A DNA stretch of 64,000 bases from Apostichopus japonicus (lineage: Eukaryota): contig NC_092564.1 in assembly GCF_037975245.1 (NCBI RefSeq), positions 11,359,891 through 11,423,890 on the forward strand, given 5' to 3'. Below are positions 7,092-61,522 of the stretch, in pieces; within the stretch, counting starts at the first letter, position 1, and the number at the start of each line of letters is the position of its first letter. A model generated the notes under the pieces. The model worked only from the letters and a program-made list of their open reading frames with translations, was not told the DNA's origin and made no database searches. A program made the position numbers and the translations under genes.

Positions 7092-9083
7092 AGGCATCAA
7101 ACTACCACTACATCTGAAGTAAGATATGAATATGATATGCAGTTACTTTTTGTTAGTTACCAACATCAAAAACAGTCTTCCCAACTCCAAAATCGTCAAG
7201 GACACTCATGATTACGTCATTCTGCTATCATATTTAATTGGTTGAAAGAATCTCTTATATATCACTTACCGCAACTTTGAGGTTTTTCTACTTTTAAAAG
7301 ACATAGTAAATGAGAATGATCCCTTTCTTAAAGACTCAGTAAAAATATGAGAACAACTGACCTCGGAGACACCCGAGACAACTTAACTACCTACGTGACC
7401 AATTTTTGGCTCATTCTTGCTTAGGGTCATTATATTTCAGCGTCACGTGTACTTGTTTCATCACGCAGATACAGAGATATATAGACGAGGAGGGCTGATA
7501 GAAGAATAATTTTTCTAAACAGTAACATAAACTGTCGTCCCCGATATATTCTATTTTAGTCCACTACTAACCATCATAACAGGATATTCTTTATCTTTGT
7601 AATCAATCTCAGTGCCTTTTGATTACAACTATACCTACTAGCGTATCGAGAAAGTCTTTTCTAGGATAAAATACTGACCGAGAAATTGTGTAAGAGCAAC
7701 AGGGCGTAAATAATATACTATACCATAAAGAGATCATTGTGCCACTGTTTAAGTGCAGTGTGCTTATAGACCTATGTGTTACATCAGGTTGATGTGGTTG
7801 TGTATCTACCTATATTGTATCGTTTACTCTAGAATACTTTAATTAAAGGGACACAAGGAGATCAACAAATGCTGCGGAAGGTGGCTAATTCTGGGAGGGA
7901 GGGGGGGGGGGGGATCAAAAGTTCGAATAGCAGTTGGACATGTGATTTTGATTTGAGGGAGCAGAACAGCAAAAAGATACGCCCCGACAAAATGGTACTC
8001 TGCGTATTTTCTGTACGACAAATGCCATGATTCGAATGAGTTAGACTTTCAAAGTTGTACCAAACAATAACAGTTGTTGCTTATAGCGGAGTAGTTGATA
8101 TACTTACGGACCAGCAATGTACTGTACATGCTTTGGTTGTATAATACATTGCCAGGGAGTAAAGGTGAATATATATATTGCGGTTGTTGCTTCATCTTGC
8201 ATGTTCTTTAGCACCCCCCGACCCACCCACCCCACCCGCTCTCCCTATTAATTATATTTCTCTTATGACGTTATTTCATCGATTTCACTCCCCCATCGGT
8301 TTTATTTCTTTGAGAGATGACGTTCCTTTAAATATCAGACTCATTAATTACAGTAGCTGGACTACCACGTCTAGCACACAAAACATTCGGGCATCTATTC
8401 AGAATCTATTCTAAAATTAATGGAAATATGGTTTTATGGTCTCAAATAATTCTTCACATGCCTTATACAAAGTTGTCAATGACAGAAATCTTGAATATTA
8501 TCATCAAGAGAGTGTCCCGTTTTTTCCCCTCATTTCTAAAACAAAGGGTTAATATCAATAATTGAATCCGGACTCATAACTTATTAGCCGACCCCATTGT
8601 TTCAGGCTTAAAGGATCATTCCATGACAACTATATATGCAGGCCCGTCGCACCCGCTACGGTAGGTACGGTATTTACCGTACCACTTTTCAGCTAAAAAC
8701 AAAGAGAGAGGGGGAGAAGAAAATAGGTGAGGGAGTTAGAAAATACAGTTCGAATCAATAAAATGCACGAGTCTTCATGACCAAAGCCGACCCTCTGTAC
8801 CATCATTGTGTCCTATGATGCGATGAGCCCCGGATGAGCCGGCACGAATTATTCAACGAATCTCAAGTTGTAACTGGGGCGATAGGGGCCTACGATTCGA
8901 GTCGCACCGAATTTCCCCAAACCCCCGAATTCCCCCCATTTCCCTAAGAAGGTGTCAAACCCGGAGATGTTTTACTTAGTTGAGCAGTGTAACAGTAAAT
9001 ACCGTCCGGATAATTAGGGCAACGTACAATGTATAGGGCGTGTCCCCGCGCTGCGCTACACCGGCAACTCAACGCAAAGGAAA

Positions 9084-9635
9084 GTGCCAGCCAGATTAGT
9101 TTCTGGTTCGGCCGCGGATATCATGCCTCCAGAATCAGTGGAGGACTACTTCAGGCGAATATACCTGGAGGCAGTTGACACCATTGTCAACTGCATCCGC
9201 GATAGATTTGATCAGGAGGGTTACAAAATCTACTCAAAACTACAGCAGCTGCTTCTCAAAACGTGTAACCAACAACATGTTGACGAAGAACTGTTAAAAT
9301 TCGTATGTGACTTTTACGGCGAGGATCTCCGTAAGGGCGAGCTCAGAGTCCAACTAGAAACCCTTGGGGAAACCATGGAAGCTACGGCCAAACAATCAGA
9401 GTGGACTTTGCCAGAGGTTGTTGACCACATGCGAGGGTTGAGTTTCGGTAATCGTGAGCTCCTCTCACAAGTGTGCACGCTTGTCAAACTAATTTTAGTG
9501 ATGCCTGCGACAAATGCAGTAAGTGAACGCTCATTTAGTGCTATGAGTGTAAAGAGTTACTTAAGGTCTACAATGACCCAGCAGCGACTCAACCACCTTA
9601 TGATCTTACATGTACACAAAGATTATGCGGATTGA
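9084..9635 (+). pseudogene. hAT-superfamily transposase remnant (C-terminal hAT dimerisation region only)
   Basis: The translation ends '...LVMPATNAVSERSFSAMSVKSYLRSTMTQQRLNHLMILHVHKD', the signature hAT C-terminal dimerisation motif. ZMYM1-like, ZBED-like and P52rIPK-like proteins all share the '..SERSFS....K..LRS.M...RL..L..L..' pattern. No upstream ORF encodes the BED/RNase-H-like catalytic part. Confidence 0.7.
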
Positions 9636-10346
9636 TTGAATCTAGTTGATGCAGCCAACGAATTTACCAGTGCCAAAGACCATCGACGCTCGGTGTTTGG
9701 TACTTTCCATTGATTTGAGTTCGCAGTAGAACGCTGCACACTAACCGATAGCCGGTGCTCCTTTTAACAGCGCCCATGCCCAGGAGCCCATGCTCTTCAG
9801 TATAGTAGTCGTTGTGATACCGGGAGCTTATAGGAGCATTAATTCCAGGAAGAAAGAGGGCTAAATTATACGAAAAATGCTCACATTTGCTGACCCTACA
9901 ACTCTAATCCTCAACCCTAACAAAGGATACAGTAGATCATCCTATACAACTGAATTGCTACAGGCAATCGGGTAATATCCTATATTCTGCGCCCCAACTG
10001 CAGAAAGAACAATGCTTGGAATTTGGAAATTGGAAAAAGTACTGCAGTATGGAGAGGATTCCACCCAGGTGTTGGTTGTCACCAACGCCGTAACGAAATA
10101 ATCATTGTTAACGTTTATTGCATAATTTCAAAAGCCTCACAGAGACTAACCGCACTCGGCGAAATCTTTGCTCACCCACAAAACATTTTTGAGGCCCTAA
10201 CCTCAAAGGAAGGTAGACTAATTGAGGAATCATTTTAGATAATCGTAACACTCATAAGAACTAGCAAAATTATCAAATTCGGATAAACTGTAACTATTCA
10301 GGTGCGTATCCAGGGGGGGACGTTGGGGGCGCGCGCCCCCCAGGTA

Positions 10347-10476
10347 AGGAAAAGAGGAGAGAAAAAAAAGAGAAGAAAAAAGGGAAAAGGAGGGGAAAAA
10401 AGAAAAGGAGGAGAAGAAGGAAGGGAAAAGAAAAAGAAAAAAGAGAGAAAAGGGAGAAAAGGGAGAAAAGGAGGGA
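10347..10476 (+). repeat. ~130-nt pure polypurine (GA-rich) / polypyrimidine tract
   Basis: The + strand is almost exclusively A/G: 'aaggaaaagaggagagaaaaaaaagagaagaaaaaagggaaaaggaggggaaaaaagaaaagg...'. It generates mirror-image spurious ORFs on both strands. Confidence 0.9.
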
Positions 10477-10769
10477 GCAGAAGATAGCCAAGACCTCGGG
10501 AAGAGAAAGATCCCTATTATATACACAGGGTAGCCAGTGACAGATCAAGGATTACGGAGGGGGTGTGCGCCTCACCCTACCCCTTACCCCGACAACTCCA
10601 TTTTGACGTTCCGTTTTTCCTCTCTCACTAATGTACTTGAACTCGACCGAGTCGTCGGGGAACATAACGCATTTCGGGAAGGGGGCGACCGCCCCCCGAG
10701 CAAATTTTCTTTATGACATCGCTAGTAATTTCAAAATAGACAATGCTTAGATGCAACTTACAAGGCCTG

Positions 10770-10864
10770 GGAAGTGTCATTTCCAGCGATCTGGGAGGCA
10801 TTTTCGGCCAAAATTTTTCTTGTACGCTTCGCGCCAACTCATGGTGGCGCTTCGCTTAGATAGT
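10770..10864 (+). repeat. ~95-bp dispersed repeat, copy B
   Basis: 'ggaagtgtcatttccagcgatctgggaggcattttcggccaaaatttttcttgtacgcttcgcgccaactcatggtggcgcttcgcttagatagt'. It is followed at 10893 by a solo MITE terminus 'cctacgcctatg'. Confidence 0.7.
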
Positions 10865-11449
10865 TTGCCTACAGGCTTCGCCCCCGTCTCCTACGGGACC
10901 TACGCCTATGAGTGAAGTGTTCGGTTTCGATATACCTGATATCGGAAATATCTGCTATTTTTCTGTTCCTTCAACCAAGTTTTGTAAAAGCCATTATAAG
11001 AGGTTGCAATATTTCTACACCAATAAATTAACTGTGTCGGAATTTTCCAAAATTTCCTCACCAACATTCTTCATCATACTTTCCTCTACTCGTTCAATTT
11101 TCACCTGTCTGTTAGGGGTTCAAGGAGGTTTTTCTATATTGGTTGTCTATAGATTGAATTTTGTGCAACATTATGGGTATGTTTTCAAGTGATTTTATTC
11201 ACGAGAAAAGGGAATTTTCAAATTCTCAACAAGTAATGGGCTTAAAACCTTCAAAAGTGGGGCTTTCGGATATTGTGGGCCGTGACGTAGAATAACCTAC
11301 AAAAGCAATGATCCATAGGACATGCAATCAGGTCGAACATGATGTGTGACTGGTGACAATCTTCAAAAAGGTTATGGATGGAAAAAAACTTTTGGGAAAT
11401 ACTTGGTTCTCAGGCAAAAGTGTACATCTAGTTGCTCATTTTCAAGCCC

Positions 11450-11544
11450 GAGAAGTGCCATTTCCGGTGATCTGGGGGGTATCAAAACCAGAAATTTTCT
11501 TGTACGCTCCGCGCCAACCGATGGTGGCGCTCCGCTTAGATAGT
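11450..11544 (+). repeat. ~95-bp dispersed repeat, copy C
   Basis: 'agaagtgccatttccggtgatctggggggtatcaaaaccagaaattttcttgtacgctccgcgccaaccgatggtggcgctccgcttagatagt'. Confidence 0.7.
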
Positions 11545-11925
11545 AATTCGCGCCCCCGGGTTAGAAAATCCTGGATACGCGCCTGCTATTACAGTACAGG
11601 CAGTTCTGAACCTTTCATTTATTTTTACTGGCGTAACGACGGTGCGGCCGTCCCGCCACTAAGTTGGAAAAGACCTCCAGCCCGTCGGAATTTCTACCAT
11701 TCATACCCCTACTATAAGACCCTAGCTAGTAGCTATACCGCCCTGCATACACTTTGTAAGTTCAAAGTGCTATATGCTCTTCCGGTGCAGCTGTGAAGGA
11801 CATGGGCGCGAGAAGGTAGAACATCCATGACTAAAGATGGGATTCTTCAGTTCATGTAGTTATAAATGAAAAAATACTGAGTTCGCAGGAGGAGAGTGTA
11901 CAACATCGTGGCCAAATTTTGCCCC

Positions 11926-12018
11926 GCAAGTGCCATTTCCAGCCATCTGGGCGGTTAGAAGATTCAAAAATTTTCTTGTACGCAGCGCCAACCGATGGTG
12001 GCGCTCCGCTTAGATAGT
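11926..12018 (+). repeat. ~95-bp dispersed repeat, copy D
   Basis: 'gcaagtgccatttccagccatctgggcggttagaagattcaaaaattttcttgtacgcagcgccaaccgatggtggcgctccgcttagatagt'. Confidence 0.7.
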
Positions 12019-13195
12019 AAATCGAACCGGTCAACAAAAATACCGTACCACTTTCAAATACCTTCCGACGGGCCTGTATATATGTACATATTAAACTATA
12101 GTAACTTGAAAACGGAAGTAGCCATATACAAATATTGCCTGCAGACTACTAAGACACAGAAGCGAGTTCAATAAGACAATAGATAATTAACAATGCCGCG
12201 AGAGTTTGAAACAAAGTTTTTATTATGAAGTTAACATATTCCGGGCGTGTGAGTGACAACTTCAAGAATTTGAAATAAAGTCGTCCGATTAATTTGATAT
12301 GTGACTCTCAGAAAATGCTGCGCTTTTAAACTACCGTATATAATGTATAGTGAACTGGACCGTTCTTAATATCTGAACTAAAAAGGACCAGTTCGGAACT
12401 GATGTTGCGAAAACTTAATCAGACGGAAGGAGAAAGCCCTCGTGCAACTGCAGAGATGAACAATGGTTACTGTATGTATAATTCAAACCCGAAAAGTATA
12501 TATTCCATTCGAGGAACAGATAGTATTCCTTAGATAATTACACGTACCAGTTTGTGTATAGCCTGTGTGAAGTGGAGTAAAACCTATACAGTTTTGTTTA
12601 CGCCTTCTCTGAGTACAAATCAACCATATTTATACAGATCGGGTGAACTCTTATTATGTGTACAGTTTTTCAACTTAATGAAAGTGTCAAGGAAAATTTC
12701 AATATCGCTGCATTAGAAGGATGATTTACGGGATTTTGTTTTTATTTAAACCAGTAACATGAGTAACTTTTAATGTTCCTGATTGATATGGGAAGTTTAT
12801 TTCAATGTTGGAACTGCTTGTTTTAATGGAGTAGCGGATTTGGGTTGTTGTTCTTTCCATTATCACTTACATATGCGATCGATAGTTGAGTAATTACGTG
12901 ATGAGGATTTGATAAGTCATTGAGTACTTTCGATAGTGTTGGACATTTTGTCGTCATCGATATTTTTAATTCAAGAGAAAGCTCTTAAGAACAACCTTTG
13001 TGATGCCAATGTAATAAGAGCATTATTTATTTAGCTTGGAAATAAAACGTTTTGCAACTTGAACAATTTTGCGACTTATTTAATGTCAATTTTGTTTTTT
13101 GGTTAATCCATCTCTACATAACACTACGGGGAACTATTTATTCTGCTACCAAACTACGACTGTGAAACAAATCCTAAAGGGATACTTCAAGCATC

Positions 13196-14497
13196 ATGAA
13201 TATTCATTCAAAGGGACCCAATCACGGCCGAAAGAAAGCCATTCGGAATGCAGAAATAGAAGCACATCTTCGAAATAACGCAGTTGACGCAACTCTTGAG
13301 GTACAAATTGCAACATTAAACGAAAAAGAACGAAAGACCACCAGAAAGTTACAGACGCAATCTCGTAGTCTCTTAGAGTCGATACAAAGCGTCAAACTAG
13401 GACGCAGACAGCGTAATAAATCACTTCCGCGTAATTCGATGGTCCGGTCACGGAGTGGAAGTTTGACATCTTCTATCCCGAGACCCAGGACCTGCTTAGC
13501 TGATACATTCAATGTCGAACAGGGAAATGGCGTAGAAGTATTAAAGCTGCCTTCCATTGGAACGAAGTCTTTTGACAAAAATCGAAGTCTGCGCAGACTT
13601 AACTCTTCAGCACTGCAAAGGCGACGATTCAGTGAAAATGACGCGCTCGTTGAGTCACTGCGACGATTTAATGCGTTACGCATCGATGATTCGAATAATG
13701 AGTCTAGTAATCAAGACGACGGTCCGGAAATCTTACCTGTTGAACTGCCGAAATCGGCCAGACTTAGGGGCCGATCAGGGTCCTGTTTTGGGCGCCTGAT
13801 ATCTCATGCTGTTCCAGAACAAAACGACGACATTGTAATAGATACGGATCCACTCGAGAAAACCTATTCGACCATTAACTGTGCCGAAGAAAATATTTCA
13901 GGATCACATGACAACGAAATAAGTACTCAGAACCTTGACAAACAGTTAGAGAGTAAGACAAACAGATTAGAACAAACCGATAACCGCGATTCTGATATCG
14001 ATGCTGAAACGTGCACCGGGGATGTTGATGATGAAACGAAGTCTGAATATGAAGATGACTTAGCTAAAATCATACCCAAAATTGTGATTTCCGAGCATAA
14101 AAATAATTTGCCATCTCCGCCGAATGACGACAGAGCCAGTTCAACAAAAAGATCAGAGAGATCACTGCTATCTGCGAATCCGAGAAGACGTCTCTATGGA
14201 ACGCCGTCTGCACAGTCTGACTGGAGTAGGAATAAACCACTTCGTGAGGCCCGAAAGAAAAACACCTCCATATTGCCCTCGACATTCGCTGCTCTTTCCA
14301 TGAGTCGGAGGTTTTCGAGTCCAGATCCCTCAGAAGATGCAGTAAGAGCTCAACAAAGATTCCTAGAAAAGCTTAATCGTAGACGACGAAGCGAACAGAA
14401 TGAACTAGCGCAAAAGGTTCAAGAATTTATGAAACAATATACGCTTAGTAATAAGGAATTAGTTGATGAAGAAGGGGATAATGAAATAACTGAATAG
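13196..14497 (+). CDS. Intronless 433-aa ORF encoding a Ser/Arg/Asp/Glu-rich low-complexity (predicted disordered) protein with short coiled-coil segments and many RRxS-type motifs; hypothetical protein
   Basis: The reading frame is 1302 nt long, uninterrupted and non-repetitive, in roughly 38%-GC DNA where random ORFs rarely exceed about 80 codons. The ATG context is 'catcATGA' with A at -3. It matches no repeat family in the window. No domain was recognised by eye. Confidence 0.55.
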   Translation: MNIHSKGPNHGRKKAIRNAEIEAHLRNNAVDATLEVQIATLNEKERKTTRKLQTQSRSLLESIQSVKLGRRQRNKSLPRNSMVRSRSGSLTSSIPRPRTCLADTFNVEQGNGVEVLKLPSIGTKSFDKNRSLRRLNSSALQRRRFSENDALVESLRRFNALRIDDSNNESSNQDDGPEILPVELPKSARLRGRSGSCFGRLISHAVPEQNDDIVIDTDPLEKTYSTINCAEENISGSHDNEISTQNLDKQLESKTNRLEQTDNRDSDIDAETCTGDVDDETKSEYEDDLAKIIPKIVISEHKNNLPSPPNDDRASSTKRSERSLLSANPRRRLYGTPSAQSDWSRNKPLREARKKNTSILPSTFAALSMSRRFSSPDPSEDAVRAQQRFLEKLNRRRRSEQNELAQKVQEFMKQYTLSNKELVDEEGDNEITE

Positions 14498-20085: not shown

Positions 20086-20544
20086 CCAAAGACGTACATA
20101 AAATTCTACCCCCCCCCCCACCCCCCTTCCTTCCTCACTCGCCCAGTTGCTAGTTAATTTCCATAAGAAAACGGTTATTCAATGGCCTGAATTGAAATAA
20201 ATTCAGCTGCATGATTTTATTCAACCTGCGTGTTTTCCTGACTTTAATAAATCATATTTGAAACAATTAATAACAATATTTTTTTTGTGCGTTTAGATGC
20301 CACCACTCCATTCAAATCACAAATCATGCGCATGCCAAAATGGAATTGATCAAGTTATCACAGACAACTTATAACTGATAATTTCTCGAAAATGGAAAAT
20401 GTGTAAAGAGATTATATCGATTGTGATTCAACGATTGCTTAATATGCTAACATTAGTTTAAAAAAAGTACCAAATAAAACTTGCAACACACTTTCAGACA
20501 TTTCCTACTTTTTTTATCGTTTGGCAAGATGAACGACATCTGCT

Positions 20545-20721
<177 letters not shown>

Positions 20722-22018
20722 GGCAGAAACGTTGCCTAATCTACGAGGACCCTTTTCATTACTTTAATTCATTTTATTTATATAATACACCCGATAGCAT
20801 TATGCCATTTTGATTTTATTCCTCTGACAAGTCTGATATCCCAGGATAATAAAACGTATACTATATAACTATTTCTAGCAAAATGAAGAAACATAACAGA
20901 TTCAAGTAATTCCCTCAAGAATAACTGTGACTCCTTTGGTCATAAATAATCAAACTAAATCAGTTTGGCTGGGAGCAATTGTTATCTCCCAAAATGTTTG
21001 TGCAATTATGGTTACTTCTTCGTTTCTCTTTATTGTCTGTACACGTGACCAAGATTGGACACGAGGTTATAAAATCTTAACCACACTGTCTGTGTTTGGT
21101 GTATATGATGAGTGGCATACCTTCGAGCCATGTGCTGTTACTGTAAATTATATTAAATTATATATTGTTGATATGGAGATCTATTAATGTAATATTTAGT
21201 CTCTAAATCGACATTTGTTAGATTTGCTGAACCTGTTTGACATCATGAATTTAAGCTTGACAAAGGGAAGTCTGAAAAAGACGTAGAAGGTATAATAGGG
21301 GGAGGGGGGGGGGGGGTGGTAGTCAAAGATGGCAGTGTCAGTATAGCGTGTTCGTTACATTTGAATTTAATATCCACGCCCATCTGAAATTTATAAAATT
21401 GATCTTTAATCGTTATTGGTATTGTTATTTTGTGAGGTTTCAGTCGGGTGATTAAAACGATTTATAAATGCCATCCGTCTTCATATCTGCTCAATAAGTC
21501 CAGACTCATCCTTAGTCAGGCATTCGATCATGATGCAGGGACGACGGGGCCTGATGGGGGGGGGGTGGACAGGGGCATTATTCCCCTCCCCTCCCAGTTC
21601 TTTATCATATCTAAAGAAAAACGATAGCAACAATAGTGTTCATCGATTAAATAATAATATAGTATAAAGGCCTAATCATTCAACATTTGAACAAGCCTTA
21701 ATTTGCACAACAAGCATACAGCACCGCACACGACGGTACAGCCGTACTACAAGAAATGCCCAGACCCCATAATGACAACTCTTTAGAAGGGCAGGGGAGA
21801 GAGCAAGAATTAGTGAACTTGGCTCTTAATCTATGTACAGCGTGATAAATTCGCAGGATTAACAGTAAAATAAGGCGTTTAATCCTCCACTGCTTCACAA
21901 CTGAACCCCAACCCAACCATCTGTCCATATCATACACCTATAGTCTGAACGATACAAACAAGGATATTACCATTTTGAAACGTTACAAGTTTGAAGAGTA
22001 AATAATATGTGAGAGAAC

Positions 22019-29325: not shown

Positions 29326-32300
29326 CAACAAGGTCATATCCCCCCACTCGGAAGTTCGGATCGCCGCCCATGGGGAGTGGTATAAGGGGAGAGGGAGGGG
29401 GTGTTCCCCTCCCCTTTTGATTTTTTTTGGAATCCTGGTGATGCCTACATGTAAAATAGTGGCACTTAGAAAGGCTTTGGTCACCCAAAATCTTCTGAGA
29501 AATATGCATTTTTTTTGTGTGTAACATCAATAAATTGAATAGTAGGGTGATAATTCATTCTTTCCCGTGGCATGAAAATGTTCGCTGCTCGCCCCAATGA
29601 AAAGAATTATAGGCTAATTTGAGGTTCAAATGATGCTGTAAAGGAGGTTTTATACTCTATTATGCTAAATGCTAAAGAAATGATGGTTGCTAGGTCAAAA
29701 TTTGATGCAAATTTTTTAATGTATACTTGACAATTACAATGCGGTTTTTTCCGACGCTTGTGCCGGTCAGCGGGTTTGGGTGTTAGAATGCGGGTCTAAA
29801 AATTTTTATCACTCACTTATAAGGCGCTTCACGGATCTGCACCATCTTATCTGAAGGACCTTCTTAAACCACGATCAGTGAGCTACTCCATACGATCTCA
29901 TGACAGTTTGATTTTAACTACCCCCCGTACTCGCTGCAAGTCCCTTGGTGACCGATCTTTTTGTGTCTATGCCCCCAAATTGTGGAATGCACTCCCATTT
30001 TCTATTCGCAATTCAAGTACTGTAAGTTCATTTAAATCCAGTCTTAAGACTCATTTTCACACGTGTATATAATTAATCTAGTTTTACTCATTTTCACACG
30101 TGTATATAATTAATCTAGTTTTACTTATTATCTCATTCTTTTTGTATTTATCTCTTACTATTGTTTTATCCTATTTATCACAGAGTGGCATGGTATATAC
30201 TGACTTCGTTGTCTCCATCGTTATTGGATTTGTTTAGTCTTTTAGGGTTATCTGTTTTTAAGATTGTTACCTCTTTCTTATGATTAACTTGGTTTCTTAA
30301 TTTTCTTTAAGTTTTTTACCTTTACTCTTTTAAGTTTGTACAGCGCCATAGCTTTTGTTTTTACATATATATGTGCGCTTTAGAAATGTTTAAATAATAA
30401 TAATAATAAATAGTCTACCACTGCTATTCCTTTCGATTTTTTTAGTTTCCAATCATATGATTTAGCGGATGTTCGGAAACACTTTTTGGCTCACCTTTGG
30501 GGGGGGGGCATGGCCCCCCTTGGCCCCGCCAGTGATACCTACCTGTATATGGAAAGCTTAATGTTAAACTAATGGTTATTCGTTAAAATACAACCCAGCT
30601 ATATCGACCGATACGGTGATGGTTAATCGGTTCAGTTTTGACGGTTAACAGTCTTTGCTTATAGTGTGGTGTGCGGAGCGAGGAATTAGGCAGCGTTAAT
30701 AAATGCACTTAAGGTTTCAAATGCAAACAGACAATCGACGAGAACTGAGGACTAATGAAATGTACTGTTGATCAGAATTTTATTATAAGATTTGTTAAGG
30801 AAACCTCCTTAACTTTTACACATAGATAACAAATAAGACAACAATAAGATGGAACAGGTTTATCGGAGACATCAAATGGTGCTTTTAATACTATAGTCTT
30901 ATAAGACTCTTAATTATAATTTTTATAAACTTGGCGTTATTTATATCATGACAGAAAAAGAAACGAAGAGCTGTTTATTATTTACTACACTATACCAGCA
31001 GGCTGTCACACTGTTGTGGCCTACAGCCAATCACAGTCCAGGCTGTCACACTGTTGTGACCTACATCCAATCAGGGTCACAAGTTCAAATGAACACATCG
31101 CGCACTTTTGATTGACAGGCTCTTCTGTTTGGTTATATTGCTAATGTTTACTATGATGCATTGTTTATAACATAATGAACAATAAATGAACATTTTATAC
31201 TTCAAAAAGCAAGTTATAAACATCTGAAGAAAAACTAACATTGTCAATAACTCTGTTCAATGATAAATAGGATGTGAATGTGAAGAATAAAAAAAATCTG
31301 GAGAAACTCTATGAATCTCACTTTATCGAATACCACGAGCCCGCCCCCCCCCCCCCAAATGTTTAAAATAATTCAGGTTTTAATTTGATTTCTTTCTTTA
31401 AAGTTGGACAGTTTTTAAACAAATAAATTGGCGATATCACAACATGACACAGACATAAATGATCTGCACTATATCACAAAACTTATAAACAAATTTTAAA
31501 GCAAAATTGGCAAAAAGGTTACCATAACAACAAAGAGGAAAACATAAACAATCAAGAAATGCAAAGAACATGTAATATAAACAATGGAGGCTATTCTAAC
31601 ATTATTTCTACTTAATCATCATCCTCATTAGCTAGAAACAAAATTATCTAGTAGGAAAACCTTGATTCAAGTCTAAAGAATTTGAGAGCTAAGTGCCAAA
31701 AGTAGCTGATCAACTATGTGTGAAAGAAGAAAGAATTATGAGGCTTGATACATTAGCTGAATACATTATTGTTTGAAATCTTCAAAAACCTTATAACATA
31801 TCGCAATATTAAATACATAACACTTCATCTTGACCGACTATGTACTGACAGTAGAGATATACCTAGTAGGAGCAGGAAAGTTTACCCAAAGACCAACACT
31901 GTTCTCAACATTCCTCAAGAAAAACAAAAACATTAAGTTGGCAAGTTTCCTTACATACATTCGTCTGAGTTGGGATCAAATTCGACTGAGGTCAAAATAT
32001 TGACAGCAAATAACATAATCTTGATTTCAAGGAAAAAAAAATTTGGCAAGGAATTGGAGTCTATTTTTGAGATTAAGTGAACTGAAATCAACAAACGGTT
32101 GATTTCTCATTTCTCTGAATCGTCAAATAAGATGTTCTTCGTCAGAATATATATGGTAACATGTGTTAAGACTAAACATGTTGTGGGGGATGTTTACTAA
32201 TGTCATACAAAATCAGAGCTTATCATGTTCTCAGGCTTGAAGAGAGAGTGAGGGAGAGGTCAGATGGGGTGGAAGAGGGTCAGATGGGAGGAAGGGGTCA

Positions 32301-60261: not shown

Positions 60262-61041
60262 GTAATTTGCTTCCTTCCTTCCTTGTTCAACAAAGAGGGC
60301 ATTTGCTAATGAAGCTAACTGCTGTGCACTAGAAGGAACATTTTTTATGTAACGGGCAGGATAGCGAGTATAGCTGCTTTCACTTCTTAAATGGCGAGAT
60401 AAGTTGAGGAGTTTTTGAGGCTATTTTGGAGGTAGGGCAGATCGTCAATATAGACTCTTATCATATGGAAGTAGTGTTCTCAGTGTTCCACTGGTTGTTG
60501 TTTCATATGGAGGTTAAGCAACTTCAACTATAAACATTTGAAATTAGAAAACAACATGGATTTGTGATTAAGATCATAATTGTCACACTGGAAGATTATA
60601 AAGCCCTGTTGCCTTAAAAGTTGAGCAATCTTGGAATGCTTACACTATTTTGCTAGTTGCACTAATCTGCTAACAAATTCACAGCATTGAGCATATTGAG
60701 CATACACAATGCATTCAAATGAAACAGTGCGAGAAATACTTATATGTTTTCGGTGAAGCAGTGACAGGATTAAGACAAATGTGTCTGTAGCCGACATATT
60801 GCGTGGTTGTTACTCAAGGCCTATTTCACTGTTGGAAAAACATTTTCATAATTGTAATAAGTAACAAAACAACACTGTACTTGTTGCACACAAAAACCTT
60901 CCATAATTCCATCTGGTTTCTAAATATGTGCTTGCAATAAGCCGAACCTGTTCTACCAATCAGGTATTCATTCAAGTCTGCAAACGTTTTTTAATTGTGT
61001 TTATATCTTTATTTTCACAAGATCGTTTCTCTTTAACACAG

Positions 61042-61329
61042 GACCAACTATCAGCTGCCGATGTTTGCCTTTTTGCTGCCCTCTATCCGCTGTATGCCAA
61101 CAATAAATCATGCTTTGAAAATTTTTCAAATCTGAATGCCTGGTTTACCAAACTTCATGCTGAACCACCATTTGGAGCTTCTGTTGCCAAGGTGACAGAA
61201 GGAAAAGGCAGCAGTTCACTGAAAGCCTCCATCCTTGCTCAACCATTGGTCAACACTCTTCCAGTAGCGAGGAGTGTGTCTAATGAGAAAGGAAAGTCAT
61301 CAAAAGATAAAGAAAATTCAACGACAGAG
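61042..61329 (+). CDS. MARS1: MetRS exon 5 (end of GST-like domain plus linker)
   Basis: Acceptor 'aacacag|GAC' and donor 'GAG|gtgagg'. Translates as 'DQLSAADVCLFAALYPLYANNKSCFENFSNLNAWFTKLHAEPPFGASVAKV...', matching human '[52 protein letters not shown]'. Confidence 0.85.
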
Positions 61330-61522
61330 GTGAGGCTTACAATTTAAAGATTTATTGTCTTCTTAAGAATATTTCTGCTCTTCTCACTGGTTTGTTTAAG
61401 TATGATTGTTTGAAGTATTTTCTATAATACCAAATGGTTCTCTTGTACATAATGTGTTTTATCAAAGCATTTGGTTGCCATAGTTACTGATATTAACATG
61501 TGTTCATGATCAATTTTTACAG

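What the first reader, a model, noticed from the sequence alone, without database searches (positions are those of the whole stretch)
13196..14497. 1.3-kb intronless ORF encoding a 433-aa Ser/Arg-rich low-complexity protein with no recognisable domain
An uninterrupted 433-codon frame is far beyond chance in AT-rich sequence, and it is single-copy within the window. The protein is extremely hydrophilic, at roughly 13% Ser and rich in R/K/D/E/N. It has an N-terminal coiled-coil-like stretch ('AEIEAHLRNNAVDATLEVQIATLNEKERKTTRKLQ') and many basophilic-kinase consensus sites ('RRFSEND', 'RRFSSPDP', 'RSRSGSLTSS'). This looks like a phospho-regulated scaffold or cell-cycle/nuclear protein, or possibly a retrogene. 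No orthologue could be assigned by eye.
Basis: partly seen in the sequence, partly recalled or inferred. Interest (0 to 1): 0.55.

Follow-up and report, generated by a model that had tools for sequence, protein, structure and literature searches.

The report
Conserved echinoderm disordered phospho-switch protein gene
The 433-codon ORF is a real, selectively maintained, intronless gene of a sea-cucumber-like genome; it encodes a mostly disordered protein of an uncharacterised echinoderm family whose only conserved parts are two terminal helices and short motifs that look like kinase, 14-3-3 and calcineurin docking sites.

Summary
ORF 13196-14497 (+) is 433 codons, single-copy, and the longest open frame in the window by more than twofold (chance about 1e-8).

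It is a functional gene, not a decaying retrocopy:
- Among three sampled haplotypes, 11 of 12 variable sites are synonymous.
- dN/dS against a related species is 0.17 (0.05 in the C-terminal block).
- Nucleotide similarity to that species starts at the ATG and ends near the stop.

Orthologues exist in Holothuria leucospilota (HOLleu_20547, 48% identity), a third holothurian-like contig, the starfish Asterias amurensis (XP_071806064.1) and two environmental assemblies. All are uninterrupted ORFs and none is characterised. No Pfam, PDB-sequence or fold match was found.

AlphaFold predicts a confident N-terminal helix (10-69), a C-terminal helical unit (347-424), and about 58% disorder.

Conservation is confined to short islands:
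- three RRxS sites, one of them an invariant RRxSxP (14-3-3 mode-1 pattern);
- an island matching the calcineurin PxIxIT consensus in all six members, at the same relative position.

Best reading (inferred, not shown): a basophilic-kinase/14-3-3 switch reversed by docked calcineurin, analogous to CRTC but not homologous to it. Interest is modest.

The parts
13196..14497 (+). Complete single-exon CDS, 433 codons plus stop
   Evidence: Similarity to the related-species contig L006 begins at 13195 and ends at 14452. 11 synonymous to 1 non-synonymous polymorphisms. dN/dS 0.17.
13223..13402 (+). N-terminal long amphipathic helix (aa 10-69). R17, E20, N27, L34 and E45 are invariant across the family.
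   Evidence: AF2 helix 10-69, pLDDT 82-95. Invariant columns in alignment A3. No clear heptad register.
13445..13507 (+). RSRSGSLTSSIPRPRTCLADT (aa 84-104): RxRxxS basophilic site plus a PRxRT block. Near-identical in holothurians and recognisable in P0006/P0007 as SRRASVD...PR.ET.
13604..13687 (+). SSALQRRRFSENDALVESLRRFNALRID (aa 137-164): RR[FY]SEND site (RRxS; SxxD) followed by a short helix. SEND is invariant in all members.
   Evidence: AF2 helix 147-165.
13766..13804 (+). RGRSGSCFGRLIS (aa 191-203): second RxRxxS site, conserved in holothurians only. It is the site of the 1-nt deletion in contig L006.
13811..14068 (+). Acidic, fast-evolving disordered linker (aa 206-291): D+E = 26, K+R = 7; dN/dS 0.55
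14072..14092 (+). IPKIVIS (aa 293-299): PxIxIT-type candidate calcineurin docking motif in a disordered segment
   Evidence: Matches .P[^P]I[^P][IV][^P] and the published P[^PG][ILVF][^PG][ILVF][^PG] in all six members, 54-66 aa upstream of the C-terminal block. Chance of a match anywhere in a shuffled protein is 3.5-10%. pLDDT about 48-59.
14139..14139 (+). The only non-synonymous polymorphism seen (G>A, S315N), located in the disordered region
14204..14437 (+). C-terminal conserved block (aa 337-414): SDWSRNKPLREARKKN..LPSTFAALS..RRFSSPDP..FLEKLNRRRRSEQ..KVQEFMKQ. It is the most constrained part (dN/dS 0.05).
   Evidence: AF2 helices 347-359, 362-369 and 378-424, pLDDT up to 92.
14306..14323 (+). 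RRFSSP (aa 371-376): invariant RRxSxP, which is a PKA-type RRxS site plus the 14-3-3 mode-1 pattern (RxxpSxP). It lies in a low-pLDDT loop between helices.
14378..14398 (+). RRRRSEQ (aa 395-401): third family-wide RRxS site, inside the terminal helix

Best explanation
ORF 13196-14497 is the complete, intronless coding sequence of a functional gene in an echinoderm genome, most likely a holothurian. It belongs to an uncharacterised family so far seen only in echinoderms (three holothurian lineages and the starfish Asterias amurensis) and in two environmental assemblies of unknown host.

The product is mostly intrinsically disordered. It has a long N-terminal helix, a C-terminal helical unit, and a fast-evolving acidic linker. 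Selection acts on the two helical ends and on a handful of short linear motifs.

Proposed mechanism (inferred from motif patterns, not shown):
1. A basophilic kinase of the PKA/AGC/CaMK type phosphorylates the conserved RRxS sites (RR[FY]SEND, RR[FH]S[SN]P, RR[RKT]S[ED][QE]).
2. The phosphorylated RRxpSxP site is read by 14-3-3.
3. The Ca2+-dependent phosphatase calcineurin, docked on the conserved PxIxIT-type island about 55-65 residues upstream, removes these phosphates.

The protein would thus act as a cAMP/Ca2+-sensitive switch or adaptor, and its helical ends would carry the still unknown effector interaction.
For: Gene reality (shown):
- Chance of such an ORF is about 1e-8, and an in-frame stop lies 6 codons upstream.
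- 12 variable sites among three haplotypes are 11 synonymous and 1 non-synonymous, P = 8e-7.
- dN/dS is 0.17 overall, 0.05 in the C-terminal block and 0.55 in the linker.
- Nucleotide similarity to a related species is confined to the ORF.

Family (shown):
- H. leucospilota HOLleu_20547: 48% identity over 96% of the length, E = 3e-96.
- A. amurensis XP_071806064.1, E = 1e-15, and P0006, E = 2e-6, with a two-sequence profile.
- P0007, E = 2e-36, with the wider profile.
- All loci are uninterrupted ORFs.

Architecture (predicted): AF2 helices 10-69, 147-165, 347-369 and 378-424, with 252 of 433 residues below pLDDT 50.

Motifs (pattern level):
- Three RRxS sites are aligned in all members, and P0007 has expanded to 14 RRxS sites, nine of them RRGSx.
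- RRxSxP is invariant. The +2 proline is kept even where +1 changes from S to N, which a kinase consensus alone does not require.
- A PxIxIT match is present in all six members at the same relative position, in a non-helical low-pLDDT segment.

Literature: the published consensus is in bioRxiv 10.1101/632547. PxIxIT is calcineurin's main docking motif (PMC8786283). The same kinase/14-3-3/calcineurin logic is documented for CRTC1/2 (PMC6317279).
Against: - No experiment or structure links this family to PKA, 14-3-3 or calcineurin; everything mechanistic is pattern matching.
- The PxIxIT consensus is loose. The source paper counts about 21,800 matches in the human proteome, nearly all believed to be non-binders.
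- I recognised the island after seeing the alignment, so the test is partly post hoc.
- No LxVP motif is conserved.
- In P0007 the aligned island ends in Ala (PSIMIA). It passes the loose consensus but not the stricter last-position set.
- The RRxSxP site sits in a short loop between predicted helices, whereas 14-3-3 needs an extended peptide.
- There is no transcription evidence for the window species: the identical Logan contigs appear to be genomic, since they carry 1.5-2.7 kb of colinear upstream sequence.
- One related contig (L006) carries a 1-nt deletion in the frame.
Confidence: 0.5

Rival explanations
1. It is a conserved phospho-regulated disordered protein, but the PxIxIT-like island is not a calcineurin site. 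It could be a short beta-strand or hydrophobic contact for another partner or for intramolecular packing, and the RRxS sites could be regulated by other phosphatases (PP1/PP2A).
For: The PxIxIT consensus is highly degenerate and most matches do not bind. No LxVP partner motif is conserved. CRTC3 shows that a relative of a calcineurin client can use PP2A instead.
Against: The Pro and the two aliphatic positions are kept in all six members, inside otherwise unalignable sequence, at constant spacing from the C-terminal block. RVxF (PP1) and LxxIxE (B56-PP2A) patterns are not conserved. SUMO-interaction patterns do not fit the island.
Confidence: 0.33
2. It is a very divergent true homologue of the CRTC/TORC CREB co-activators, which share an N-terminal binding helix, SIK/14-3-3 sites and PxIxIT motifs.
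For: The order of elements is the same: N-terminal helix, basophilic/14-3-3 sites, a PxIxIT-type motif, and disorder.
Against: No TORC_N, TORC_M or TORC_C match in four divergent members, even at E <= 10. There is no PDB-sequence hit with two profiles. There is no acidic/hydrophobic C-terminal activation domain; a basic helical block takes its place.
Confidence: 0.04
3. It is a processed retrocopy that is decaying or non-functional, or a chance or transposon-derived ORF.
For: It is intronless. A hAT transposon lies 1.1 kb upstream. One related contig has a 1-nt deletion.
Against: Polymorphism is 11 synonymous to 1 non-synonymous, and dN/dS is 0.17. The frame is open in at least five other lineages spanning two echinoderm classes. 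No intron-containing parent was found in 1.84 billion representative proteins. There is no A-rich tract downstream of the stop. There is no transposon domain, and the gene is single-copy in the window. In L006 the frame stays open and conserved for 640 nt after the deletion, so that lesion is a read error or very recent.
Confidence: 0.02
4. It is an SR-like nuclear or splicing protein, or an AKAP-type PKA anchor.
For: The composition is Ser/Arg-rich with several basic clusters that could be nuclear localisation signals. The many PKA-type sites might suggest PKA proximity.
Against: There is no RRM or other Pfam domain and only 12 RS/SR dipeptides. The RII-binding helix pattern hits only the proline-containing island in holothurians and nothing in the starfish, P0006 or P0007.
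Confidence: 0.04

Closest known systems
Hypothetical protein HOLleu_20547 (Holothuria leucospilota) and uncharacterized protein XP_071806064.1 (Asterias amurensis)
   Same: These are true homologues. HOLleu_20547 has the same length (434 aa), 48% identity over 96% of the protein, and the same order of conserved blocks. The starfish protein shares the N-terminal helix, RRYSEND, the PxIxIT-type island and the C-terminal block. Both are encoded by uninterrupted ORFs.
   Different: The acidic linker is unalignable. The holothurian-specific RSRSGS and RGRSGS (RxRxxS) sites are degenerate or absent in the starfish. None of these proteins has any functional annotation.
CRTC1/CRTC2 (TORC) CREB co-activators
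   Same: The regulatory logic inferred here is the one documented for CRTC. Both are largely disordered proteins with an N-terminal binding helix. Basophilic-kinase sites create 14-3-3 binding, and calcineurin docked on PxIxIT motifs (PGINIF, PNIILT) removes them (PMC6317279). The starfish island PNIKVT resembles CRTC's PNIILT.
   Different: There is no detectable sequence homology: no TORC_N/M/C match. The sites here fit RRxS (PKA-type) rather than the SIK LxRxxS pattern. The C-terminus is a basic helical block rather than an activation domain. The family is restricted to echinoderms as far as searched.
Small disordered calcineurin-tethering proteins (SPATA33 with PQIIIT; calcimembrin/C16orf74)
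   Same: They are disordered proteins whose main recognisable feature is a PxIxIT motif. H. leucospilota's PQIVIT is one residue away from SPATA33's PQIIIT (PMC8786283; PMC12612047 listed).
   Different: From general knowledge, not tested here, those proteins are much shorter. They also lack the terminal helices and the triple RRxS architecture. No sequence relationship was detected.
SR (Ser/Arg-rich) splicing proteins
   Same: The composition is rich in Ser and Arg.
   Different: There is no RRM and no RS-dipeptide repeat domain, with only 12 RS/SR dipeptides in 433 aa.

Membership tests
Unnamed echinoderm family (HOLleu_20547 / XP_071806064.1-like) | Significant full-length or multi-block sequence similarity | tested here: met
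   E = 3e-96 and 48% identity over 96% of the query to HOLleu_20547. The profile finds the starfish protein at 1e-15, P0006 at 2e-6 and P0007 at 2e-36.
Unnamed echinoderm family (HOLleu_20547 / XP_071806064.1-like) | Shared block order: N-terminal helix, RR[FY]SEND, PxIxIT-type island, then the PLR[ED]AR[RK]K...RRxSxP...RRxSE helical block | tested here: met
   Alignments A2 and A3; motif positions.
Unnamed echinoderm family (HOLleu_20547 / XP_071806064.1-like) | Uninterrupted (intronless) coding sequence | tested here: met
   Window, L003, L004, L005, and L007, whose genomic ORF is 494 codons. L006 is uninterrupted apart from a 1-nt deletion.
CRTC/TORC co-activators | TORC_N (CREB-binding), TORC_M and TORC_C domains | tested here: not met
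   No such Pfam hit at E <= 10 for the window protein, P0002, P0005, P0006 or P0007. No PDB sequence hit.
CRTC/TORC co-activators | PxIxIT calcineurin motif plus kinase-created 14-3-3 sites | tested here: inconclusive
   The patterns are present and conserved, but binding and phosphorylation cannot be tested with these tools.
Calcineurin clients (PxIxIT class) | Match to P[^PG][ILVF][^PG][ILVF][^PG] in an accessible, disordered region | tested here: met
   PKIVIS, PQIVIT, PKIVIS, PNIKVT, PTIQVS and PSIMIA. Consensus from bioRxiv 10.1101/632547. pLDDT about 48-59 and non-helical.
Calcineurin clients (PxIxIT class) | Evolutionary conservation of the motif | tested here: met
   Present in all six members, 54-66 aa before the C-terminal block. 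The chance of a match anywhere in a shuffled protein is 3.5-10%.
Calcineurin clients (PxIxIT class) | Second docking motif, LxVP | tested here: not met
   No conserved LxVP; the only hit is LAIP in P0006. Many PxIxIT proteins lack one: only 40 human proteins are predicted to carry both.
Calcineurin clients (PxIxIT class) | Physical binding to calcineurin A and Ca2+-dependent dephosphorylation | not testable with these tools
   This needs peptide binding or co-immunoprecipitation.
14-3-3 clients (mode 1) | R-x-x-pS/pT-x-P motif | tested here: met
   RRFSSP, RRHSSP and RRHSNP are aligned in all six members. The mode-1 definition comes from general knowledge.
14-3-3 clients (mode 1) | Phosphorylation-dependent 14-3-3 binding | not testable with these tools
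   No phosphoproteomic or binding data are available.
SR splicing proteins | RRM domain(s) plus an RS-dipeptide-rich domain | tested here: not met
   No RRM and only 12 RS/SR dipeptides.
Processed pseudogene / decaying retrocopy | Relaxed constraint (dN/dS near 1, frame disruptions), a poly(A) remnant, and an intron-containing parent gene | tested here: not met
   dN/dS 0.17. Polymorphism 11 synonymous to 1 non-synonymous. No A-tract downstream. No parental paralogue among the 6 hits of the exhaustive search.
AKAP (PKA anchoring) | Conserved amphipathic RII-binding helix pattern | tested here: not met
   The pattern (recalled from memory) hits only the proline-containing island in holothurians and nothing in the other three lineages.

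The most novel reading that the evidence does not exclude
An echinoderm-specific, anciently intronless protein family that evolved independently of CRTC and NFAT into a cAMP/Ca2+ coincidence switch (PKA-type sites, a 14-3-3 clamp, PxIxIT-docked calcineurin). Its conserved terminal helices would deliver a lineage-specific output, for example in egg activation, regeneration or the control of mutable connective tissue.
Probability: 0.2. Interest if true: 0.5.

Novelty: new member of a known kind. Interest (0 to 1): 0.3.

Why it matters
It turns an anonymous 'hypothetical protein' into a defined family that is at least echinoderm-wide, with a concrete and cheaply testable hypothesis: three conserved RRxS sites, one 14-3-3 site and one calcineurin docking site. 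If the motif reading holds, it would be an example of convergent assembly of the kinase/14-3-3/calcineurin module on a lineage-restricted disordered scaffold. That is relevant to how signalling networks acquire new clients. If it fails, the gene remains an ordinary taxon-restricted disordered protein. The finding has no broader consequence for genome biology.

Tried and rejected
1. Pfam scans of the window protein and four relatives, down to E = 10, gave only noise (Tli4_N, RasGAP_C, ArlX, all far below cut-off).
2. PDB sequence searches with two profiles gave nothing meaningful (uL23 and Hif1 at E > 0.1).
3. Foldseek of the AF2 model against PDB gave 0 hits. AFDB was not available.
4. A third word-indexed search with a trimmed block alignment returned only the already-known fragments.
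5. A JGI metagenome scan matched 171 patterns, but none was a relative.
6. The intron hypothesis for the 3.4-kb gap between the Logan contigs and the window was rejected. The gap is a hAT insertion with an 8-bp target-site duplication and terminal inverted repeats.
7. Synteny tests with the H. leucospilota and Asterias loci found only the ORF and shared repeat fragments. The Asterias RUN/RH-domain neighbour is not in the window.
8. PP1 RVxF, B56 LxxIxE, LxVP, SUMO-interaction and AKAP RII-helix patterns are not conserved.
9. A classical coiled coil is not supported, as there is no heptad register.
10. Rfam found nothing at 7-17 kb.
11. A literature search for HOLleu_20547 found no paper.
12. 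The antisense ORF 13222-13683 (153 aa) has no domain and is the expected shadow of the sense frame.
Full report
OBSERVATION. An in-frame stop lies six codons upstream of the ATG. It is the longest open frame in the window by more than twofold, at 439 codons stop-to-stop against 205 for the next. With the window's composition (A/T 31% each, p(stop) = 0.067 per codon), the probability of 433 open codons is 8.5e-14, or about 1e-8 after allowing for every start position. tblastn of the product against the window gives only the self hit. Composition is S 12.0%, R 10.6%, L 9.0%, E 8.5%, N 7.9%, and the quoted motifs are present. No Pfam domain reaches threshold.

SETTING. The window is a gene-poor, 32-44% GC eukaryotic region with microsatellites and transposon debris. 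The best relatives of the ORF are echinoderm proteins, so the source is an echinoderm and most likely a sea cucumber. This is an inference from 48% identity to Holothuria leucospilota against 26% to a starfish. The species itself was not identified.

IS IT A FUNCTIONAL GENE? Two Logan assemblies from other sequencing runs (L001, L002) carry the same locus at 99.2-99.4% identity. Across these haplotypes, 12 sites in the ORF vary: 11 are synonymous and one is non-synonymous (G14139A, S315N, in the disordered part). With 295 synonymous and 1004 non-synonymous sites, P(<=1 non-synonymous of 12) = 8e-7.

A third, more distant contig (L006; 62% amino-acid identity) gives dN/dS = 0.17 overall: 0.155 for aa 1-205, 0.555 for the acidic middle, and 0.048 for aa 291-415. 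dS is about 1.6, which is close to saturation. Against H. leucospilota, dS is saturated. Nucleotide similarity between the window and L006 begins at the ATG (13195) and ends at 14452, while the flanks are unalignable. That is what a single-exon coding sequence under protein-level selection should look like. The 'decaying retrocopy' option is therefore rejected.

One caveat concerns L006, which has a 1-nt deletion in a G-rich run inside the RGRSGS codons and so splits the gene into two called ORFs (P0003 and P0004). The frame then stays open and conserved for another 640 nt. The deletion is therefore either a read or assembly error or a very recent lesion. No transcription data could be consulted. 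The Logan contigs carry 1.5-2.7 kb of colinear upstream sequence and look genomic.

THE FAMILY. The word-indexed search found an identical-length Logan protein (it differs from the window only by S315N) and hypothetical protein HOLleu_20547 of H. leucospilota (434 aa, 48% identity over 96% of the query, E = 3e-96). An exhaustive HMMER search of 1.84 billion representatives with the two-sequence profile found only six proteins. These were the two above, the two halves from L006, XP_071806064.1 of the starfish Asterias amurensis (466 aa, E = 1e-15) and an ENA metagenome protein (P0006, 496 aa, E = 2e-6). A wider profile added P0007 (703 aa, Tara metagenome scaffold, E = 2e-36).

Every locus is an uninterrupted ORF. 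In Asterias the genome carries a 494-codon open frame, from which the RefSeq model omits 28 in-frame residues. The family was therefore already intronless at the asteroid-holothuroid split. None of the members has a Pfam domain, a PDB sequence relative or a mention in the searchable literature. A further block-only search and a JGI metagenome scan added nothing. The exhaustive search was run with holothurian sequences only, so more distant relatives cannot be excluded.

ANATOMY. AlphaFold2 on the seven-row alignment gives mean pLDDT 54 and pTM 0.21. Its main features are:
- a confident helix at aa 10-69 (pLDDT 82-95);
- a short helix at 147-165;
- helices at 347-359, 362-369 and 378-424 (pLDDT up to 92);
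- 252 of 433 residues below pLDDT 50.

Foldseek against PDB finds nothing. The N-terminal helix has invariant R17, E20, N27, L34 and E45 but no clear heptad core. It is best described as a long amphipathic helix, not a demonstrated coiled coil.

Conservation outside the helices is confined to short islands:
- RSRSGSLTS..PRPRTCLADT (aa 84-104; RxRxxS);
- RR[FY]SEND (aa 143-149; SEND is invariant);
- RGRSGSCFGRLIS (aa 191-203; holothurians only);
- IPKIVIS (aa 293-299);
- the C-terminal block, with RR[FH]S[SN]P (aa 371-376) and RR[RKT]S[ED][QE] (aa 396-401).

Three RRxS sites are thus kept in every lineage, and P0007 has expanded to 14 RRxS sites, nine of them RRGSx. Residues 206-291 are acidic (26 D/E against 7 K/R), unalignable and fast-evolving.

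MECHANISM (inferred). Two of the islands match well-defined docking patterns.

First, RRxSxP is the 14-3-3 mode-1 pattern (RxxpSxP; general knowledge). The +2 proline is retained even where +1 changes from S to N. A basophilic-kinase consensus alone would not require that proline.

Second, the island PKIVIS / PQIVIT / PKIVIS / PNIKVT / PTIQVS / PSIMIA matches the calcineurin PxIxIT consensus P[^PG][ILVF][^PG][ILVF][^PG] used by Wigington et al. (bioRxiv 10.1101/632547) in all six members. It always lies 54-66 residues before the C-terminal block and in a non-helical, low-pLDDT segment. A composition-matched shuffle has only a 3.5-10% chance of carrying such a match anywhere in the protein.

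Rival patterns are not conserved: PP1 RVxF, B56 LxxIxE, LxVP, SUMO-interaction motifs and the AKAP RII-helix.

The simplest model has three steps. A PKA-like or other basophilic kinase phosphorylates the RRxS sites. 14-3-3 clamps pS374. Ca2+-activated calcineurin, docked on the PxIxIT island, reverses this. The terminal helices would carry the unknown output.

This is the logic documented for CRTC1/2, where SIK-created 14-3-3 sites are removed by calcineurin docked on PGINIF and PNIILT (PMC6317279). PxIxIT is calcineurin's principal docking motif (PMC8786283).

Several cautions apply. The consensus is loose: about 21,800 human matches, almost all non-binders. I recognised the island after seeing the alignment. 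No LxVP is conserved. Nothing here demonstrates phosphorylation or binding.

I put about 0.97 on 'real, conserved, functional gene of an uncharacterised echinoderm family', about 0.6 on 'regulated through the RRxS/14-3-3 sites', and about 0.4 on calcineurin docking. The combined statement is scored 0.5.

COMPARISON WITH KNOWN FAMILIES. Membership is established only for the unnamed HOLleu_20547 / XP_071806064.1 family. The protein works like CRTC in the inferred logic but is not a CRTC: no TORC_N/M/C match, a different site consensus and a different C-terminus. It is not an SR protein, having no RRM and only 12 RS/SR dipeptides. It is not an AKAP, and it is not a processed pseudogene.

NOVELTY AND INTEREST. 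The sequences are already in public databases as 'hypothetical' or 'uncharacterized' proteins, and taxon-restricted disordered proteins are common. New here are the delimitation of the family, the evidence for selection, and the motif architecture with its testable hypothesis. I rate it a new member of a known kind (SLiM-driven phospho-regulated disordered proteins), with interest 0.3. The most novel reading not excluded is a convergent, echinoderm-specific cAMP/Ca2+ switch analogous to CRTC/NFAT. I give it a probability of about 0.2 and an interest of 0.5 if true.

SIDE OBSERVATIONS. A 3.43-kb hAT-type transposon (8639-12068) sits 1.1 kb upstream of the ORF. It has an 8-bp target-site duplication (TATATATG), terminal inverted repeats (CAGGCCCGTCG) and a hAT dimerisation-domain ORF. 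It is absent from both other haplotypes, so the insertion is polymorphic.

The 1119 nt between that insertion site and the ATG are almost free of polymorphism (1-2 differences). This compares with 3.7% at synonymous sites and 2.6-3.9% downstream of the stop (Fisher P between 4e-4 and 8e-8). The deficit remains unexplained.

Noticed in passing
window 8639-12068 (TSD at 8631-8638 and 12069-12076): A polymorphic hAT-type DNA transposon insertion of about 3.43 kb lies 1.1 kb upstream of the ORF. It has an 8-bp target-site duplication (TATATATG) and terminal inverted repeats (CAGGCCCGTCG / CGACGGGCCTG). An internal ORF at 9084-9635 carries the hAT C-terminal dimerisation domain (Pfam 1.7e-8). The empty site is present in two other sampled individuals (L001, L002).
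   Followed up: partly
window 12077-13195: The 1119 nt upstream of the ATG differ from the two other haplotypes at only 1-2 sites (0.09-0.18%). This compares with 3.7% at synonymous sites, 2.6-3.9% in the 304 nt after the stop, and about 1.2% in the distal flank (Fisher P between 4e-4 and 8e-8). There is no cross-species nucleotide similarity, no Rfam hit and no repeat copy. It could be a constrained promoter or 5'UTR, or local haplotype sharing.
   Followed up: partly
window 14801: Both independent Logan contigs end at exactly this position, 304 nt past the stop. No poly(A) signal, tandem repeat or in-window repeat was found there. The preceding 304 nt are unusually polymorphic, so an indel or a structural difference between haplotypes is likely.
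   Followed up: partly
L006 1311-1330 (related-species contig, SRR32120561): A 1-nt deletion in the G-rich run AGGGGAGG, inside the RGRSGS codons, splits the orthologue into two called ORFs (206 and 212 aa). The downstream frame is otherwise intact and conserved. The deletion is either a read or assembly error or a very recent frameshift.
   Followed up: partly
L007 10001-11485 (Asterias amurensis CP134969.1): The genome carries an uninterrupted 494-codon ORF, but RefSeq XP_071806064.1 omits 28 in-frame residues (an 84-nt segment). By my reading, the boundaries of the omitted segment are not GT-AG. The downstream neighbour is a RUN + RH-domain gene, which is not present in the window.
   Followed up: partly
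window 60928-61347 (+): This ORF has a GST C-terminal domain (Pfam GST_C, 8e-5) followed by a Lys/Ser-rich tail. It is probably an exon of a gene with a GST-like domain.
   Followed up: no
window 29878-30072 (+); L007 5043-5420: A transposon-tail-like ORF (...GDRSFCVYAPKLWNALPFSIRNSSTVSSFKSSLKTHF) is shared at 38% identity with the Asterias locus. It is a dispersed repeat, not synteny. Related fragments at window 10750-10890 and 11430-11550 (inside the hAT element) match repeats in the H. leucospilota locus.
   Followed up: no
P0007 (Tara scaffold L005 1070-3181), aa 96-281: This family member carries a lineage-specific expansion of about nine RRGS[VAI]D-type PKA-consensus repeats between the N-terminal helix and the SEND motif.
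   Followed up: no
window 20481-20813: A long microsatellite that translates as (IY)n, responsible for a spurious 110-aa ORF.
   Followed up: no
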